Shown here: one piece after another, positions 28,125-34,100 of the stretch
Position numbering within the stretch: position 1 is the first letter of the stretch
Layout: each line of letters starts with the position of its first letter
Source: Escherichia coli
GTDB taxonomy: Bacteria > Pseudomonadota > Gammaproteobacteria > Enterobacterales > Enterobacteriaceae
Direction: 5' to 3' (one strand)
NCBI RefSeq assembly: GCF_003334305.1
Contig: NZ_QOWS01000006.1
Length of the DNA stretch: 64,000 bases
Made by a program: the position numbers

Positions 28125-31100
28125 TTAAAACCTGGCGGCGGGATTGTCACCGCCTCGCTGGCGTCGCGCAATAAGGTAATATGTGGATGAAACGGACGAT
28201 TGCTTTGAAAACAACCGCTGCGGGCAGCCTGTGAACGGAGCATATTCGCCAGCTGGATTAAGCCGCGTGGAGGCTGACGCATCCCTAACCACACCACACG
28301 CGAACGCAGCCATTGTCCGGCGTCATCAAGCGTGAGTGTGAAACCAGGTTGACGAATCCGTCCGGCTAAAAGAGAAAGCGCCTTCTCTTTCTCGGCGCTC
28401 ACTTCGCCTAAAAATGCCAGAGTCAGATGCAAATTATCGGCGGCGACCGGACGTCCCGCCTCAGGTGGGAAGTGTGTGGCGCGCCAATGGATAATCTGTT
28501 CGCGGATTTCTGCAGGTAAGTCGATAGCAAAGAACAGACGTTGCGGTTCAGACATGTGAGGCACTCGGTTATGAATTACCGCGATGCTACAATGTGGCGC
28601 GAAGAATGTTAACCCTCTGGAGCGTTTTGTGTCGTCGTTGCCCGTTGCTGCCGTCTTATCTGAATTACTTACCGCTCTCGATTGTGCGCCGCAGGTATTA
28701 TTAAGTGCGCCGACCGGGGCCGGGAAATCAACCTGGCTGCCGCTGCAACTGCTGGCGCATCCCGGCATTAACGGGAAAATTATCCTGCTGGAGCCGCGTC
28801 GTCTGGCGGCGCGTAACGTCGCGCAACGGCTGGCGGAGCTGCTTAACGAAAAGCCAGGCGATACCGTTGGCTACCGGATGCGTGCGCAAAACTGCGTCGG
28901 GCCGAATACCCGCCTGGAAGTGGTTACCGAAGGCGTGCTGACGCGCATGATCCAGCGTGACCCGGAACTGAGCGGTGTTGGACTGGTGATCCTTGATGAA
29001 TTTCATGAGCGCAGCTTGCAGGCGGATTTGGCGTTGGCGCTGTTACTCGATGTGCAACAAGGTCTGCGTGATGACCTTAAACTGCTGATTATGTCGGCTA
29101 CCCTGGACAACGACCGCTTGCAGCAAATGCTGCCAGAAGCGCCTGTCGTCATCTCAGAAGGGCGCTCGTTTCCGGTTGAACGCCGTTATTTACCGCTGCC
29201 CGCGCATCAGCGTTTTGACGATGCCGTTGCGGTAGCCACCGCTGAAATGCTGCGTCAGGAAAGCGGATCATTACTGTTATTTTTACCTGGCGTCGGAGAA
29301 ATTCAGCGTGTGCAGGAACAACTGGCTTCGCGCATCGGCAGTGATGTATTGCTCTGCCCGCTGTATGGCGCGTTGTCGCTGAACGATCAGCGAAAAGCGA
29401 TCCTCCCGGCACCGCAAGGGATGCGCAAAGTGGTGCTGGCGACCAATATTGCTGAAACCAGTTTAACCATTGAAGGTATTCGTCTGGTGGTGGATTGTGC
29501 CCAGGAGCGTGTGGCGCGTTTTGATCCGCGCACGGGGCTTACGCGACTGATTACTCAACGCGTTAGCCAGGCATCCATGACGCAGCGTGCCGGGCGCGCC
29601 GGGCGTCTGGAGCCGGGTATCTGCCTGCATTTAATCGCCAAAGAACAAGCAGAACGCGCCGCGGCGCAAAGTGAACCGGAGATCTTACAAAGCGATCTTT
29701 CCGGTTTGCTGATGGAATTACTGCAATGGGGATGCAGCGATCCGGCGCAGATGAGCTGGCTGGATCAACCGCCAGTAGTGAATCTACTGGCCGCGAAACG
29801 TCTGTTACAAATGCTGGGGGCACTGGAGGGTGAACGGCTTAGTGCGCAAGGGCAAAAAATGGCAGCGCTGGGTAACGATCCGCGTTTAGCGGCAATGCTG
29901 GTTAGCGCGAAGAACGACGACGAAGCTGCTACCGCGGCAAAAATTGCCGCCATTCTCGAAGAGCCGCCACGGATGGGCAATAGTGACCTGGGCGTGGCGT
30001 TTTCGCGCAATCAACCAGCCTGGCAGCAACGTAGTCAGCAACTGTTAAAACGCTTAAACGTACGTGGCGGTGAGGCAGACAGTTCGCTTATCGCGCCGCT
30101 ACTTGCCGGGGCGTTTGCCGATCGCATTGCTCGTCGCCGTGGGCAAGATGGACGCTATCAACTGGCAAACGGCATGGGAGCGATGCTCGATGCCAACGAC
30201 GCGCTAAGCCGCCACGAATGGTTGATCGCACCGTTATTATTGCAGGGCAGCGCCTCGCCGGATGCGCGGATTTTACTGGCGCTGCCGGTCGATATTGATG
30301 AGTTAGTACAACGCTGCCCGCAGCTGGTACAGCAGTCTGACACTGTGGAGTGGGATGACGCGCAAGGTACGCTGAAAGCCTGGCGTCGGCTACAAATCGG
30401 TCAGTTGACGGTGAAAGTGCAGCCGCTGGCGAAACCGTCAGAAGACGAGTTGCATCAGGCGATGCTTAATGGCATCCGTGATAAAGGTTTAAGCGTGCTC
30501 AACTGGACGGCGGAAGCGGAACAGCTACGCTTGCGTTTGTTATGCGCCGCAAAGTGGTTGCCGGAATATGACTGGCCAGCGGTTGATGATGAAAGTTTAT
30601 TGGCGACGCTGGAAACGTGGCTGCTGCCACATATGACTGGCGTACATTCACTACGCGGCCTGAAATCACTCGACATTTATCAGGCACTACGCGGATTACT
30701 TGATTGGGGAATGCAGCAACGTCTGGATAGTGAATTGCCTGCGCATTACACTGTGCCGACGGGAAGCCGGATCGCCATTCGTTATCATGAAGATAACCCG
30801 CCCGCGCTGGCGGTGAGAATGCAAGAGATGTTTGGCGAGGCCACCAATCCGACGATCGCCCAGGGGCGCGTGCCGCTGGTGCTGGAGTTGCTTTCACCTG
30901 CCCAAAGGCCATTACAAATCACACGAGATTTGAGCGCCTTCTGGAAAGGAGCGTACCGTGAGGTGCAAAAAGAGATGAAAGGGCGTTATCCCAAACATGT
31001 CTGGCCGGACGACCCGGCAAATACTGCACCGACGCGACGGACGAAAAAGTATTCGTAAGGTTGGTTTTCTCCCTCTCCCTGTGGGAGAGGGCCGGGGTGA

Positions 31101-34100
31101 GGGCATCAGCGCGCACGTTCACCCTCACCCTAACCCTCTCCCTCAAGGGAGAGGGGACCGATCGAGCACAAATTTTGAGAGATATCTTCTTCTGTCTTGT
31201 AACAGAAGAACAGAAAATCGGGCTTTTGCGCCTGAATATTGCGGAGAAAAAGCATGGCCGGGAATGACCGCGAGCCAATTGGACGCAAAGGGAAACCGAC
31301 GCGTCCGGTCAAACAAAAGGTAAGCCGTCGTCGTTACGAAGATGACGATGATTACGACGATTATGATGACTATGAGGATGAAGAACCGATGCCGCGCAAA
31401 GGTAAGGGCAAAGGCAAAGGGCGTAAGCCTCGTGGCAAACGCGGCTGGCTATGGCTGCTGTTAAAACTGGCTATCGTTTTTGCCGTGCTGATCGCCATTT
31501 ACGGCGTTTATCTCGATCAAAAAATTCGTAGCCGTATTGATGGCAAGGTCTGGCAACTGCCTGCGGCAGTTTATGGCCGAATGGTCAATCTTGAGCCAGA
31601 TATGACCATCAGCAAGAACGAGATGGTGAAGCTGCTGGAGGCGACTCAGTATCGTCAGGTGTCGAAAATGACCCGTCCTGGCGAATTTACCGTGCAGGCC
31701 AACAGCATTGAGATGATCCGCCGTCCGTTTGATTTCCCGGACAGTAAAGAAGGGCAGGTGCGTGCGCGTCTGACCTTTGATGGTGATCATCTGGCGACGA
31801 TCGTCAATATGGAGAACAACCGTCAGTTCGGTTTCTTCCGTCTTGATCCGCGCCTGATCACCATGATCTCTTCGCCAAACGGTGAGCAGCGTCTGTTTGT
31901 GCCGCGCAGTGGTTTCCCTGATTTGCTGGTGGATACTTTGCTGGCGACAGAAGACCGCCATTTCTACGAGCATGATGGGATCAGCCTCTACTCAATTGGG
32001 CGTGCGGTGCTGGCAAACCTGACCGCAGGTCGCACGGTGCAGGGTGCGAGTACGCTGACGCAACAGCTGGTGAAAAACCTGTTCCTCTCCAGCGAGCGCT
32101 CTTACTGGCGTAAAGCGAACGAAGCCTACATGGCGCTGATCATGGACGCGCGTTACAGCAAAGACCGTATTCTTGAGCTGTATATGAACGAGGTGTATCT
32201 CGGTCAGAGCGGCGACAACGAAATCCGCGGCTTCCCGCTGGCAAGCTTGTATTACTTTGGTCGCCCGGTAGAAGAGCTAAGCCTCGACCAGCAGGCGCTG
32301 TTAGTCGGTATGGTGAAAGGGGCGTCCATCTACAACCCGTGGCGTAACCCGAAACTGGCGCTGGAGCGACGTAATCTGGTGCTGCGTCTGCTGCAACAGC
32401 AACAGATTATTGATCAAGAACTCTATGACATGTTGAGTGCACGTCCGCTGGGGGTTCAGCCGCGCGGTGGGGTAATCTCTCCACAGCCAGCCTTTATGCA
32501 ACTGGTGCGTCAGGAGCTGCAGGCAAAACTGGGCGATAAGGTAAAAGATCTCTCCGGCGTGAAGATCTTCACTACCTTTGACTCGGTGGCCCAGGACGCG
32601 GCAGAAAAAGCCGCCGTGGAAGGCATTCCGGCACTGAAGAAACAGCGTAAGTTGAGCGATCTTGAAACTGCGATTGTGGTCGTCGACCGCTTTAGTGGTG
32701 AAGTTCGTGCGATGGTCGGAGGTTCTGAGCCGCAGTTTGCGGGCTACAACCGTGCGATGCAGGCGCGTCGTTCGATTGGTTCCCTTGCAAAACCAGCGAC
32801 TTATCTGACGGCTTTAAGCCAGCCGAAAATCTATCGCCTGAACACGTGGATTGCCGATGCGCCAATCGCGCTGCGTCAGCCGAATGGCCAGGTCTGGTCA
32901 CCGCAGAACGATGACCGTCGTTATAGCGAAAGCGGCAGAGTGATGCTGGTGGATGCGTTGACCCGTTCGATGAACGTGCCGACGGTAAATCTGGGGATGG
33001 CGCTGGGGCTGCCTGCAGTTACGGATACCTGGATCAAACTGGGCGTACCGAAAGATCAGCTGCATCCGGTTCCGGCGATGCTGCTGGGGGCGTTGAACTT
33101 AACGCCAATCGAAGTGGCGCAGGCGTTCCAGACCATCGCCAGCGGTGGTAACCGTGCACCGCTTTCTGCACTGCGTTCGGTAATCGCGGAAGATGGCAAG
33201 GTGCTGTATCAGAGCTTCCCGCAGGCAGAACGCGCTGTTCCGGCGCAGGCGGCGTATCTGACACTATGGACCATGCAGCAGGTGGTACAACGTGGTACGG
33301 GTCGTCAGCTTGGGGCGAAATACCCGAACCTGCATCTGGCAGGGAAAACAGGGACTACCAACAATAACGTAGATACCTGGTTTGCAGGCATTGACGGCAG
33401 CACGGTGACCATCACCTGGGTAGGCCGTGATAACAACCAGCCGACCAAACTGTATGGAGCCAGCGGGGCAATGTCGATTTATCAGCGTTATCTGGCTAAC
33501 CAGACGCCAACGCCGCTGAATCTTGTTCCGCCAGAAGATATTGCAGATATGGGCGTGGACTACGACGGCAACTTTGTTTGCAGCGGTGGCATGCGTGTCT
33601 TGCCGGTCTGGACCAGCGATCCGCAATCGCTGTGCCAGCAGAGCGAGATGCAGCAGCAGCCGTCAGGCAATCCGTTTGATCAGTCTTCTCAGCCGCAGCA
33701 ACAGCCGCAACAGCAACCTGCTCAGCAAGAGCAGAAAGACAGCGACGGTGTAGCCGGTTGGATCAAGGATATGTTTGGTAGTAATTAACATCTAAGCGTG
33801 AAATACCGGATGGCGAGTTGCCATCCGGTAAAATAACATCCCATCTAAGATATTAACCCTTTCTTTTCATCTGGTTGTTTATTAACCCTTCAGGAACGCT
33901 CAGATTGCGTACCGCTTGCGAACCCGCCAGCGTTTCGAATATTATCTTATCTTTATAATAATCATTCTCGTTTACGTTATCATTCACTTTACATCAGAGA
34001 TATACCAATGGCGCGTTCCAAAACTGCTCAGCCAAAACACTCACTGCGTAAAATCGCAGTTGTAGTAGCCACAGCGGTTAGCGGCATGTCTGTTTATGCA

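What the first reader, a model, noticed from the sequence alone, without database searches (positions are those of the whole stretch)
31069..31213. Compound GC-rich palindromic repeat (boxC-like) and a second hairpin in the hrpB-mrcB spacer
The 195 bp spacer holds two copies of a 9 bp-stem hairpin, CCCTCTCCC-N3/4-GGGAGAGGG (31071-31091 and 31134-31155). They are bracketed by GGGTGAGGG (31095-31103) and its complement CCCTCACCC (31122-31130), which can pair with each other, giving a nested cruciform-capable element typical of boxC-type intergenic repeats. Downstream, CTTCTTCTGT-cttgta-ACAGAAGAA (31187-31210) forms another hairpin in the mrcB 5' leader. Such elements can act as terminators, mRNA stabilisers or recombination hotspots.
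Basis: seen in the sequence. Interest (0 to 1): 0.3.

Follow-up and report, generated by a model that had tools for sequence, protein, structure and literature searches.

The report
Known BoxC repeat pair, hrpB-mrcB spacer
The GC-rich palindromes between hrpB and mrcB are two inverted copies of E. coli's long-known BoxC repeat (also called PIT, TMECO or HPGQ), already catalogued at this exact site, so the main finding is ordinary; the small AT-rich hairpin next to it is a separate, conserved and apparently undescribed feature of the mrcB promoter region.

Summary
The window is identical to E. coli K-12 MG1655 here (window coordinate + 133476 = NC_000913.3).

- **What it is.** The GC-rich element is two BoxC units in inverted orientation. 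Each unit is CCCTCTCCC-loop-GGGAGAGGG-loop-GGGTGAGGG. Holder et al. 2015 list both units as TMECO #1 and #2, and Kaplan et al. 2016 list them as HPG2 #5 and HPG1 #6. It is already known.
- **Extent.** Comparison with a second locus (phnD-phnE) sets the full element at 107 bp (31064-31170).
- **Variation.** Among 5,426 complete E. coli genomes, about 60% carry it, about 35% lack it, and about 5% carry mostly a 64-bp collapse to one hairpin. Rare 12-bp gain and loss alleles also exist. Every length change falls on the internal 9-mer repeats.
- **Transcripts.** A published Term-seq RNA 3' end lies 5 nt after the palindrome. Full-length transcript data show hrpB and mrcB as separate units. The element probably caps the hrpB transcript and is dispensable for mrcB.
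- **Second hairpin (31187-31210).** It is unrelated to BoxC and invariant in E. coli. It keeps its pairing through compensatory changes in 64 Enterobacterales sequences, and in Klebsiella where hrpB is not the neighbour. It lies at -36 to -13 of the proximal mrcB promoter, not in its 31-nt leader. Its function is unknown.

The parts
31064..31170 (.). Whole compound BoxC element (107 bp): GTTTTCT flank, unit 1, 18-nt centre, unit 2, GACCGATCGAGCACA flank
   Evidence: The same 107 bp (95% identical) lies between phnD and phnE in strain E686. That match covers query 6-112, which is exactly 31064-31170. The collapsed 43-nt form, with the same flanks, is in phnD-phnE of strain D7.
31071..31104 (+). 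BoxC / TMECO unit 1 (type B): CCCTCTCCC TGT GGGAGAGGG CCG GGGTGAGGG C
   Evidence: Sequence. Listed as TMECO #1, 164547-164580 sense, in Holder 2015 Table 1, and as HPG2 #5 in Kaplan 2016.
31104..31121 (.). 18-nt centre of the palindrome (CATCAGCGCGCACGTTCA), made of the two unit tails
   Evidence: the repeat finder I1 gives 18 nt between the arms. Comparison with other K-12 pairs, whose centres are 28-29 nt.
31121..31155 (-). BoxC / TMECO unit 2 (type A), read on the minus strand: CCCTCTCCC TTGA GGGAGAGGG TTA GGGTGAGGG T
   Evidence: Sequence. Listed as TMECO #2, 164631-164597 antisense, and as HPG1 #6.
31160..31160 (+). Published RNA 3' end (K-12 164636), 5 nt after the last BoxC hairpin
   Evidence: Term-seq table of Adams et al. 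2021, with its 61-nt context sequence. No other 3' end is listed between 164640 and 164699.
31175..31183 (+). TTGAGAGAT, the start of the block conserved upstream of mrcB in Enterobacterales (about -48 to -40 of the proximal TSS)
   Evidence: Invariant or nearly invariant columns 1-9 of alignment A2. Also present in Klebsiella and Proteus.
31187..31210 (+). Second hairpin: TTCTTCTGT / CTTGTA / ACAGAAGAA, with a conserved, covarying stem
   Evidence: the repeat finder I7. RNA fold -10.1 kcal/mol. In 64 sequences 90.6% of cells are paired, against about 50% in slid controls, and pair 20-29 shows six pair types.
31213..31218 (+). Probable -10 hexamer GAAAAT (GAGAAT in most relatives), followed by a GC-rich discriminator
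   Evidence: Invariant A40, A42, A43, T44 and C45 in A2. The published TSS lies 5 nt downstream. The assignment is my inference.
31223..31223 (+). Published proximal mrcB TSS (K-12 164699)
   Evidence: SMRT-Cappable-seq operon table of Yan et al. 2018: operon b0149, TSS 164699, forward.
30759..30759 (+). Published distal TSS (K-12 164235) inside hrpB, assigned to mrcB by its authors
   Evidence: Kim et al. 2012, supplementary TSS table.

Best explanation
The GC-rich element is a tail-to-tail inverted pair of BoxC repeats (also called PIT elements, TMECO intrastrand-triplex motifs or HPGQ). BoxC is a chromosomal, intergenic, non-coding dispersed repeat of Enterobacteriaceae and many other bacteria.

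Each unit has a 9-bp GC hairpin followed by a third G-rich block. On an isolated single strand that block can fold back onto the hairpin as a purine-motif triplex, or the four G-runs can form a G-quadruplex. This was shown in vitro by others.

At this site the pair occupies the dispensable part of the spacer, between the hrpB stop codon and the conserved mrcB promoter block.

**Inferred role.** When transcribed from hrpB, the pair folds into a very stable stem that marks the 3' end of the hrpB transcript. The most likely mechanism is stopping 3'-to-5' exonucleases, as REP elements do, rather than acting as a classical terminator.

**Shown here.** Its internal 9-mer blocks, repeated at a 12-nt period and again about 64 nt apart across a palindrome, make the spacer prone to slippage. 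This produces the 12-bp gain, the 12-bp loss and the 64-bp collapse alleles.

It is not needed for mrcB expression.
For: **Identity.**
- The coordinates and sequences match Holder 2015 Table 1, #1 and #2, and Kaplan 2016.
- All nine base triplets of each unit obey purine-motif rules: seven G.G-C, one A.A-T and one T.A-T (read).

**Family.**
- The 36-nt consensus has 77,957 places in 5,409 of 5,426 E. coli genomes, median 15 per genome, with only 46 on plasmids.
- The motif occurs in many copies in distant phyla, and 120 of 137 matches carry the complementary upstream block with at most one mismatch.
- Other K-12 pairs share the unit-specific flanks.

**Dispensable.**
- 1,885 genomes (35%) have a 93-bp spacer without the element, and 3,266 (60%) have it.
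- The mrcB-proximal block is intact in both.

**Slippage alleles.**
- A 64-bp deletion lies exactly between the two GGGAGAGGG copies.
- A 12-bp duplication GGGAGAGGGCCG is present in 2 genomes.
- A 12-bp deletion TAACCCTCTCCC is present in strain E105.
- The same 43-nt collapsed product occurs at phnD-phnE.

**Transcript end.**
- A Term-seq 3' end lies at 164636, 5 nt past the stem.
- Matching 3' ends lie 4 nt after the A-type hairpin at lldD-trmL and 12 nt after it at fepB-entC.
- The hrpB operon is hrpB alone and mrcB has its own TSS.

**Stability.** RNA fold of the element -66.3 kcal/mol.
Against: - No function has been demonstrated. Holder et al. saw no triplex protection in vivo by DMS footprinting. 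They also cite reporter assays showing no promoter or terminator activity.
- The 3' end at 164636 was listed in only one of the Term-seq condition sheets.
- None of the six coordinate bins I queried, placed just past BoxC at five other K-12 loci (adk, ilvC, gcvP, alx, fabI), held a matching 3' end. The link between BoxC and RNA 3' ends is therefore anecdotal (3 loci).
- How the repeat spreads is unknown. I saw no target-site duplication or terminal inverted repeats.
- The 'empty' allele is not a clean excision. Its 13 nt (GAAGACCAAAGCA) differ from both flanks of the filled allele.
Confidence: 0.85

Rival explanations
1. The palindrome is the intrinsic (Rho-independent) terminator of hrpB.
For: An RNA 3' end lies 5 nt after the stem. 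hrpB and mrcB are separate transcription units. In Enterobacter-like relatives the BoxC unit in this spacer is often followed by a canonical hairpin plus T-run.
Against: No T-run follows the stem, and the terminator scan finds nothing in 30800-31500. Reporter assays cited by Holder et al. found no terminator activity for these elements. Relatives carrying a separate terminator beside BoxC suggest that BoxC itself does not terminate.
Confidence: 0.12
2. The units are regulatory DNA switches (G-quadruplex / hairpin / triplex) that control neighbouring genes, here mrcB.
For: Four G3 runs with 3-nt loops fit the quadruplex rule. CD spectra show ion-dependent structures (Kaplan 2016). A stable triplex was shown by NMR on the isolated strand (Holder 2015). 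RNA polymerase holoenzymes with four different sigma factors gave SELEX peaks at 164658 in this spacer.
Against: 35% of E. coli genomes lack the element, while the mrcB promoter block is unchanged. The element is upstream of the conserved block and in either orientation in different genera. Duplex DNA showed no triplex signal, and in vivo DMS gave no protection. Neighbouring genes show no functional bias.
Confidence: 0.08
3. The 107-bp unit is a miniature mobile element (MITE-like) inserted by a trans-acting enzyme.
For: The same 107 bp with identical ends sits at two unrelated loci. Presence or absence differs between strains. The motif occurs in many copies across distant phyla.
Against: No target-site duplication or terminal inverted repeats are visible at either locus. 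The element-less allele is not a clean empty site. The element is rare on plasmids (344 of 72,556 records, several of them mislabelled chromosomes) and nearly absent from phages (4 of 50,697). No associated enzyme is known.
Confidence: 0.1
4. The downstream inverted repeat (31187-31210) is a protein operator in the mrcB promoter, not a nucleic-acid hairpin.
For: It spans -36 to -13 of the proximal promoter. Its outer half-sites TTCTTC/GAAGAA are nearly invariant.
Against: The inner 4-5 pairs change in 44 haplotypes yet stay complementary. U.G cells (67) far outnumber A.C cells (15), and the sense strand folds better than the antisense strand in 44 of 64 sequences. This points to one strand, not a duplex site. 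The spacing does not fit a LexA box: CTG-N8-CAG here, against CTG-N10-CAG (own knowledge).
Confidence: 0.2

Closest known systems
BoxC / PIT element / TMECO (Bergler 1992 and Bachellier 1990s as cited; Hoyne et al. 2000; Holder et al. 2015, PMC4666352)
   Same: Same sequence, same coordinates, same three-block layout. It shows the same type B plus type A inverted pairing seen at 5 K-12 sites, the same intergenic location, and the same strain-to-strain instability, including the 'palindrome effect' collapse.
   Different: Nothing differs. This is a catalogued member. New here are the 107-bp boundaries, a 5,426-genome allele census, and the match to a published RNA 3' end.
HPGQ (HPG1/HPG2) G-quadruplex-hairpin-duplex switch (Kaplan et al. 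2016, PMC5100583)
   Same: The same two units are listed between hrpB and mrcB (midpoints 164569 + and 164608 -).
   Different: Only the proposed structure differs (quadruplex rather than triplex). The NMR of Holder et al. argued against a quadruplex for the isolated strand.
REP / BIME elements
   Same: Both are GC-rich palindromic intergenic repeats, often in inverted pairs after stop codons. REPs protect upstream mRNA from 3' exonucleases, which is the role inferred here. In some relatives a REP-like element occupies this same spacer instead.
   Different: The consensus is different and there is no REP motif. BoxC has the extra third G-rich block, and no RAYT-type transposase is known for it.
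5'-UTR or promoter-embedded stem-loops (for example the ompA 5' hairpin)
   Same: The second hairpin is a short conserved stem close to a gene start and is constrained on the sense strand.
   Different: It lies upstream of the proximal TSS. No Rfam family matches it, and I found no description of it in the searched literature.

Membership tests
BoxC / TMECO | Three consecutive 9-nt blocks CCCTC(T/G)CCC, GGG(A/T)GAGGG, GGG(A/T)GAGGG with loops of 3-5 and 3 nt, obeying purine-motif triplet rules | tested here: met
   Both units were read. Triplets are G.G-C x7, A.A-T x1 and T.A-T x1. The pattern matches.
BoxC / TMECO | Second loop CCG (type B) or TTA (type A); pairs combine one A and one B on opposite strands | tested here: met
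   Unit 1 has CCG on the + strand and unit 2 has TTA on the - strand. The rule is stated in Holder 2015. The same holds in four other K-12 pairs.
BoxC / TMECO | Multi-copy, intergenic, chromosomal | tested here: met
   Median 15 places per E. coli genome, with 46 of 77,957 on plasmids. Intergenic here. Rare on plasmids and phages.
BoxC / TMECO | Listed as a member by the family's authors | tested here: met
   TMECO #1 is 164547-164580 and #2 is 164631-164597. The offset of 133476 was verified by identity to NC_000913.3.
BoxC / TMECO | Forms an intrastrand triplex | not testable with these tools
   CD and NMR on oligonucleotides of these types were published by Holder et al.. No triplex was detected in duplex DNA or in vivo.
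HPGQ G-quadruplex motif | Four runs of at least 3 G separated by short loops, with a conserved C-rich 5' flank | tested here: met
   GGGAGAGGGCCGGGGTGAGGG is preceded by CCCTCTCCC. Listed in Kaplan 2016.
Intrinsic terminator | GC-rich stem followed directly by a T-run | tested here: not met
   No terminator-like site on either strand in 30800-31500. The stem is followed by GACCGATCG.
REP / BIME | REP consensus palindrome (GCCGGATGCGGCG-type) | tested here: not met
   No such motif in 31059-31253. REP-like sequences are seen only in some other taxa's spacers.
MITE | Terminal inverted repeats and target-site duplication | tested here: not met
   The flanks at hrpB-mrcB (GGTTG | AATTT) and phnD-phnE (TTAAT | TTACT) show no duplication. 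The unit ends GTTTTCT and GAGCACA are not inverted copies of each other.
Any Rfam RNA family | Score at or above the gathering threshold | tested here: not met
   Only sub-threshold miRNA-precursor hits on the GC palindrome (best 29.4 bits against a gathering score of 74), and nothing on 31175-31253.

The most novel reading that the evidence does not exclude
The element under real constraint in this spacer may be the small hairpin at 31187-31210, not BoxC. It would be an undescribed stem-loop found across Enterobacterales, tied to mrcB and constrained on the sense strand. It overlaps the -35/spacer of the proximal PBP1b promoter and lies inside the long leader made from a distal promoter. It could set PBP1b expression, for example by processing or stabilising the long-leader mRNA, or by coupling upstream read-through to promoter use.

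Separately, BoxC units may serve generally as exonuclease-blocking 3' caps of transcripts.
Probability: 0.3. Interest if true: 0.45.

Novelty: already known. Interest (0 to 1): 0.2.

Why it matters
**BoxC pair.** It matters little. The pair is a catalogued repeat whose biology remains unresolved after 30 years. This locus adds a clean example of how it generates length variants, plus a hint that it caps a transcript.

**Small hairpin.** It would matter more if confirmed. PBP1b is a major cell-wall synthase, and I found no description of cis-regulation of mrcB in the literature I searched. A conserved structural element in its promoter or leader would be a directly testable handle on that question.

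Tried and rejected
- **Rfam scan.** It returned only spurious miRNA-like hits caused by the GC palindrome.
- **Promoter and terminator scan.** It found nothing.
- **Genome-contig scan.** It shows breadth across phyla but gives no E. coli copy list.
- **First 'empty allele' query.** It counted 1,489 genomes and undercounted. The flank-only query gave 1,885.
- **'Collapsed allele' query.** Its 584 hits mixed two loci, hrpB-mrcB and phnD-phnE. I therefore estimated the hrpB-mrcB share by difference (about 275) and from the sampled spans (3 of 59).
- **L128.** It turned out to be E. coli itself, not an outgroup.
- **Published 'TTGAGA-17-TGTAAC' promoter.** I rejected it as the real one. It is a computed best match inside a SELEX peak, its -10 is not conserved in relatives, and the mapped TSS is elsewhere.
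- **Readings considered and rejected for the small hairpin:**
  - A LexA box: the spacing is wrong.
  - A CsrA site: K-12 has no GGA in it.
  - An upstream ORF: the frame is not conserved across the indels in A2.
  - An intrinsic terminator: there is no U-run.
  - An hrpB 3'-UTR element: it persists in Klebsiella, where hrpB is not upstream.
- **Helix 2 of the alignment fold (columns 46-49/56-59).** It hardly varies: two of its four pairs are invariant, none shows a change on both sides, and it overlaps the discriminator and TSS. It is more likely promoter sequence than RNA structure.
- **TSS sources that gave nothing.** The held Cappable-seq supplement, Thomason 2015, which is not held, and Conway 2014, for which no supplement is held.

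
Full report
**Observation.**
- The window is identical to E. coli K-12 MG1655 across this spacer. Window coordinate + 133476 gives the NC_000913.3 coordinate.
- The hrpB stop codon ends at 31058 and the mrcB ATG is at 31254, so the spacer is 195 bp.
- The hairpin pattern CCCTCTCCC-N3-6-GGGAGAGGG occurs twice in 64 kb, against none in 100 shuffles. The motif GGGWGAGGG-N3-GGGWGAGGG, allowing 2 mismatches, occurs only at these two places.
- The 96 nt around the element fold far better than shuffles: DNA -33 kcal/mol, z = -7.05.
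- The order along the strand is hairpin 1, GGGTGAGGG, 18-nt centre, CCCTCACCC, hairpin 2. The complementary 9-mers are therefore inside the hairpins, not outside them.
- The whole is an 85-nt imperfect palindrome. Its lowest-energy single-strand fold is one long hairpin. Three adjacent hairpins are a close alternative: -33.0 against -29.0 kcal/mol as DNA, and -66.3 against -53.5 as RNA.

**Identity.**
- A literature search led directly to Holder et al. 2015 (PMC4666352). Their Table 1 of 23 'TMECO' motifs in MG1655 starts with these two entries:
  - #1: CCCTCTCCCTGTGGGAGAGGGCCGGGGTGAGGGC, 164547-164580, sense, type B.
  - #2: CCCTCTCCCTTGAGGGAGAGGGTTAGGGTGAGGGT, 164631-164597, antisense, type A.
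  - These correspond to window 31071-31104 (+) and 31121-31155 (-).
- The authors state that this motif is the BoxC repeat of the 1990s and the 'PIT element' of Hoyne et al. 2000.
- Kaplan et al. 2016 (PMC5100583) list the same two units between hrpB and mrcB as putative G-quadruplex motifs HPG2 #5 and HPG1 #6.
- The repeat unit is the hairpin plus the next G-rich block. Folded back over the hairpin's purine arm, GGGTGAGGG gives seven G.G-C, one A.A-T and one T.A-T triplets, all allowed in the purine motif (read).
- Published experiments on these motifs:
  - Isolated strands of these types form very stable triplexes (melting temperatures 70-82 C, 18 imino signals by NMR).
  - No triplex was seen once the complementary strand was added, and in vivo DMS footprinting gave no protection.
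  - Earlier reporter work found no promoter or terminator activity.

**Family checks made here.**
- The 36-nt type-A consensus has 77,957 places in 5,409 of 5,426 complete E. coli genomes. The median is 15 and the range 1-29 per genome. Only 46 places are on plasmids.
- The 107-bp element matches 344 of 72,556 plasmid records, several of which are mislabelled chromosomes. It matches 4 of 50,697 phage records.
It found many copies per genome in Archangium, Afipia, Contendobacter, Hyphomicrobiales and deltaproteobacterial MAGs. In 120 of 137 matches the complementary block lies upstream with at most one mismatch.

**Boundaries.**
- A query built for the collapsed allele unexpectedly also hit the phnD-phnE spacer.
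- In strain E686, phnD-phnE holds the full compound element at 95% identity. That match covers exactly window 31064-31170.
- The element is therefore 107 bp: GTTTTCT, unit 1, centre, unit 2, GACCGATCGAGCACA.
- Four other K-12 pairs (fepB-entC, ygfF-gcvP, alx-sstT, lldD-trmL) share the unit-specific flanks. These are roughly GCACCGYTTTTCY before type B and GACYGNYCGAGCAC after type A. The pairs occur both tail-to-tail and head-to-head.
- Neither locus shows a target-site duplication.

**Variation between strains (5,426 complete genomes).**

| Allele | Spacer length | Genomes | Source |
|---|---|---|---|
| K-12-type pair | 195 bp | 3,266 (60%) cover at least 80% of the K-12 spacer | |
| No element | 93 bp | 1,885 (35%); all 20 sampled rows span 214 bp | |
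| Mainly the collapsed single hairpin | 131 bp | about 275 (5%), by difference | |
| 12-bp duplication GGGAGAGGGCCG | 207 bp | 2 | |
| 12-bp deletion TAACCCTCTCCC in unit 2 | 183 bp | strain E105 | |

- The element-less group includes EC958, JJ1887 and an ST1193 strain. These are phylogroup B2 lineages (own knowledge).
- In the 131-bp allele, a 64-bp deletion joins the two GGGAGAGGG copies and leaves a single hairpin. It is seen in O111:H8 and related strains, in 3 of 59 sampled rows.
- Every junction lies on the internal 9-mer blocks. These blocks repeat at 12-nt spacing (D1) and again 64 nt apart across the palindrome.
- This is the pattern expected from slipped mispairing between short direct repeats that a hairpin brings together (established mechanism; inference here).
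- The same 43-nt collapsed product at phnD-phnE shows that the collapse has happened at two loci.
- Holder et al. described this as a 'palindrome effect' in 56 strains. The census extends it about a hundredfold.

**Other genera.**
- A metagenome scan keyed to the MrcB N-terminus, with E. coli's second codon excluded, gave 112 loci. There were 87 distinct upstream sequences, and hrpB lies upstream in every locus long enough to tell.
- The stretch between the hrpB stop and a conserved block starting at TTGAGAGAT holds different things in different sequences:
  - nothing at all;
  - REP-like palindromes (11);
  - terminator-like hairpins with T-runs;
  - a type-B BoxC unit in the opposite orientation to E. 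coli's (26 intact, 13 degenerate or hairpin-only).
- One such contig is Enterobacter cloacae complex: its MrcB is 99% identical to a named protein.
- Some contigs repeat the unit tail GTGCGGCCTGA, or repeat the whole unit plus terminator two or three times. One (L206) carries an A+B pair inverted relative to E. coli's.
- BoxC at this junction is therefore old or recurrent. The element-less E. coli allele keeps GACC...AGCA, which resembles the type-A flank, so it may be a deletion remnant rather than a virgin site (suggestive only).

**What it does here.**
- Published full-length primary-transcript data give hrpB as its own operon (TSS 161664 and 162076). They give mrcB its own TSS at 164699, which is window 31223.
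- Term-seq lists one plus-strand RNA 3' end in the spacer, at 164636 = window 31160. This is 5 nt after the last paired base of the palindrome.
- The same tables show 3' ends 4 nt after the A-type hairpin at lldD-trmL (3781065) and 12 nt after it at fepB-entC (624567).
- None of the six coordinate bins I checked, placed just past BoxC at five other loci, held a matching 3' end.
- No T-run follows the stem, and the cited reporter assays found no terminator activity.
- The best reading is that the stem stops 3' exonucleases and so defines the end of the hrpB transcript, as REP elements do. I hold this with moderate confidence.
- A third of E. coli genomes lack the element while the mrcB promoter block is untouched. 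It is therefore not required for mrcB.

**The second hairpin.**
- TTCTTCTGT / CTTGTA / ACAGAAGAA (31187-31210) is unrelated to BoxC.
- Within E. coli the stem is invariant; there is one loop difference in the element-less allele.
- I aligned 64 distinct sequences from TTGAGAGAT to the ATG. The helix at columns 13-22/27-36 is paired in 90.6% of cells, against about 50% when the partner is slid by 1-3 columns.
- Six of the ten pairs show changes on both sides. Pair 20-29 has GC 26, AU 24, UA 5, GU 4, CG 2 and UG 2, with one unpaired cell.
- RNAalifold predicts the same helix independently.
- There are 44 inner-stem haplotypes. G.U cells number 67 against 15 A.C cells, and the sense strand folds better than the antisense strand in 44 of 64 sequences. 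This points to a constraint on the mrcB-sense strand.
- Caveats: the sequences are related, and the counts are not tree-corrected. The two measures the tool regards as most robust were not extreme (20/500 and 65/500).
- Relative to the mapped TSS, the hairpin spans -36 to -13. The invariant GAGAAT (GAAAAT in K-12, 31213-31218) is the likely -10, followed by a GC-rich discriminator (inference). The hairpin is therefore not in the 31-nt leader of that transcript.
- A distal TSS has been reported 495 nt upstream in E. coli (164235, inside hrpB) and 296 nt upstream in K. pneumoniae.
- In K. pneumoniae the upstream neighbours are gspS and a small ORF on the other strand, not hrpB. The block TTGAGAGAT, the hairpin with a different inner stem, and GAGAAT are all retained. 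Proteus mirabilis keeps a looser version.
- The hairpin therefore belongs to mrcB and not to the hrpB 3' end. It would be part of the RNA only in long-leader transcripts.
- No Rfam family covers it, and my literature searches found no description. Its function is unknown. I give my hypotheses in the report sections, without strong preference.

**Verdict.**
- The main finding is a correct recognition of a known, catalogued repeat. Its novelty is 'already known' and its interest is low.
- The added value is the precise anatomy, the population-scale allele spectrum, the link to a published RNA 3' end, and the side observation of a conserved stem-loop in the mrcB promoter region.

Noticed in passing
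window 31175-31253 (hairpin 31187-31210): An ~80-nt block upstream of mrcB is conserved across Enterobacterales. It runs TTGAGAGAT, a covarying 9-10-bp hairpin, GAGAAT, a GC-rich discriminator, then the Shine-Dalgarno sequence. The hairpin overlaps the -35/spacer of the proximal promoter. It persists in Klebsiella, where hrpB is not the upstream gene. No Rfam family matches and I found no description.
   Followed up: yes
L241 301-408 (E. coli E686, phnD-phnE) and L125 401-443 (strain D7): The phnD-phnE spacer carries the same 107-bp BoxC pair in some strains. In others it carries the same 43-nt collapsed single-hairpin form. The collapse has therefore occurred at two loci.
   Followed up: partly
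L195, L162, L196, L154, L194, L214 (metagenome contigs, hrpB-mrcB spacer): In Enterobacter-like contigs the BoxC unit tail GTGCGGCCTGA is repeated 2-4 times in tandem. In some contigs the whole unit plus an adjacent terminator hairpin is repeated two or three times.
   Followed up: no
K-12 624680 (-), 624567 (-), 3781065 (+), 3959499 (-), from the Adams et al. 2021 tables: Term-seq 3' ends coincide with other BoxC sites. One very abundant end lies immediately before the fepB-side unit. A ppiC end falls in the GTTTTCT flank of a type-B unit that follows a terminator hairpin.
   Followed up: partly
K-12 164658 (window ~31182), from the literature: Genomic SELEX found RNA polymerase holoenzyme binding at the same spot in this spacer with sigma-70, sigma-H, sigma-F and sigma-E. 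Such sigma-independent binding could reflect the odd DNA rather than four promoters.
   Followed up: no
L005-L124 (genome-contig scan): Nearly the same 33-nt three-block motif occurs in many copies in Myxococcota, Alpha-, Gamma- and Deltaproteobacteria. The flanks are lineage-specific: in one MAG, for example, each copy is followed by GCGGGCTCCGCCCGC. Why one sequence recurs across phyla is unexplained.
   Followed up: partly
phage records MG065686.1 and MG065691.1: Two Campylobacter phage records match 93% of the 107-bp element at 86% identity. This is odd for an AT-rich host and could be contamination or a chimeric assembly.
   Followed up: no
window 31071-31157: Rfam covariance models for several animal miRNA precursors (mir-197, mir-1228 and others) give sub-threshold hits here on both strands. 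This is an artefact of the long GC-rich palindrome.
   Followed up: yes
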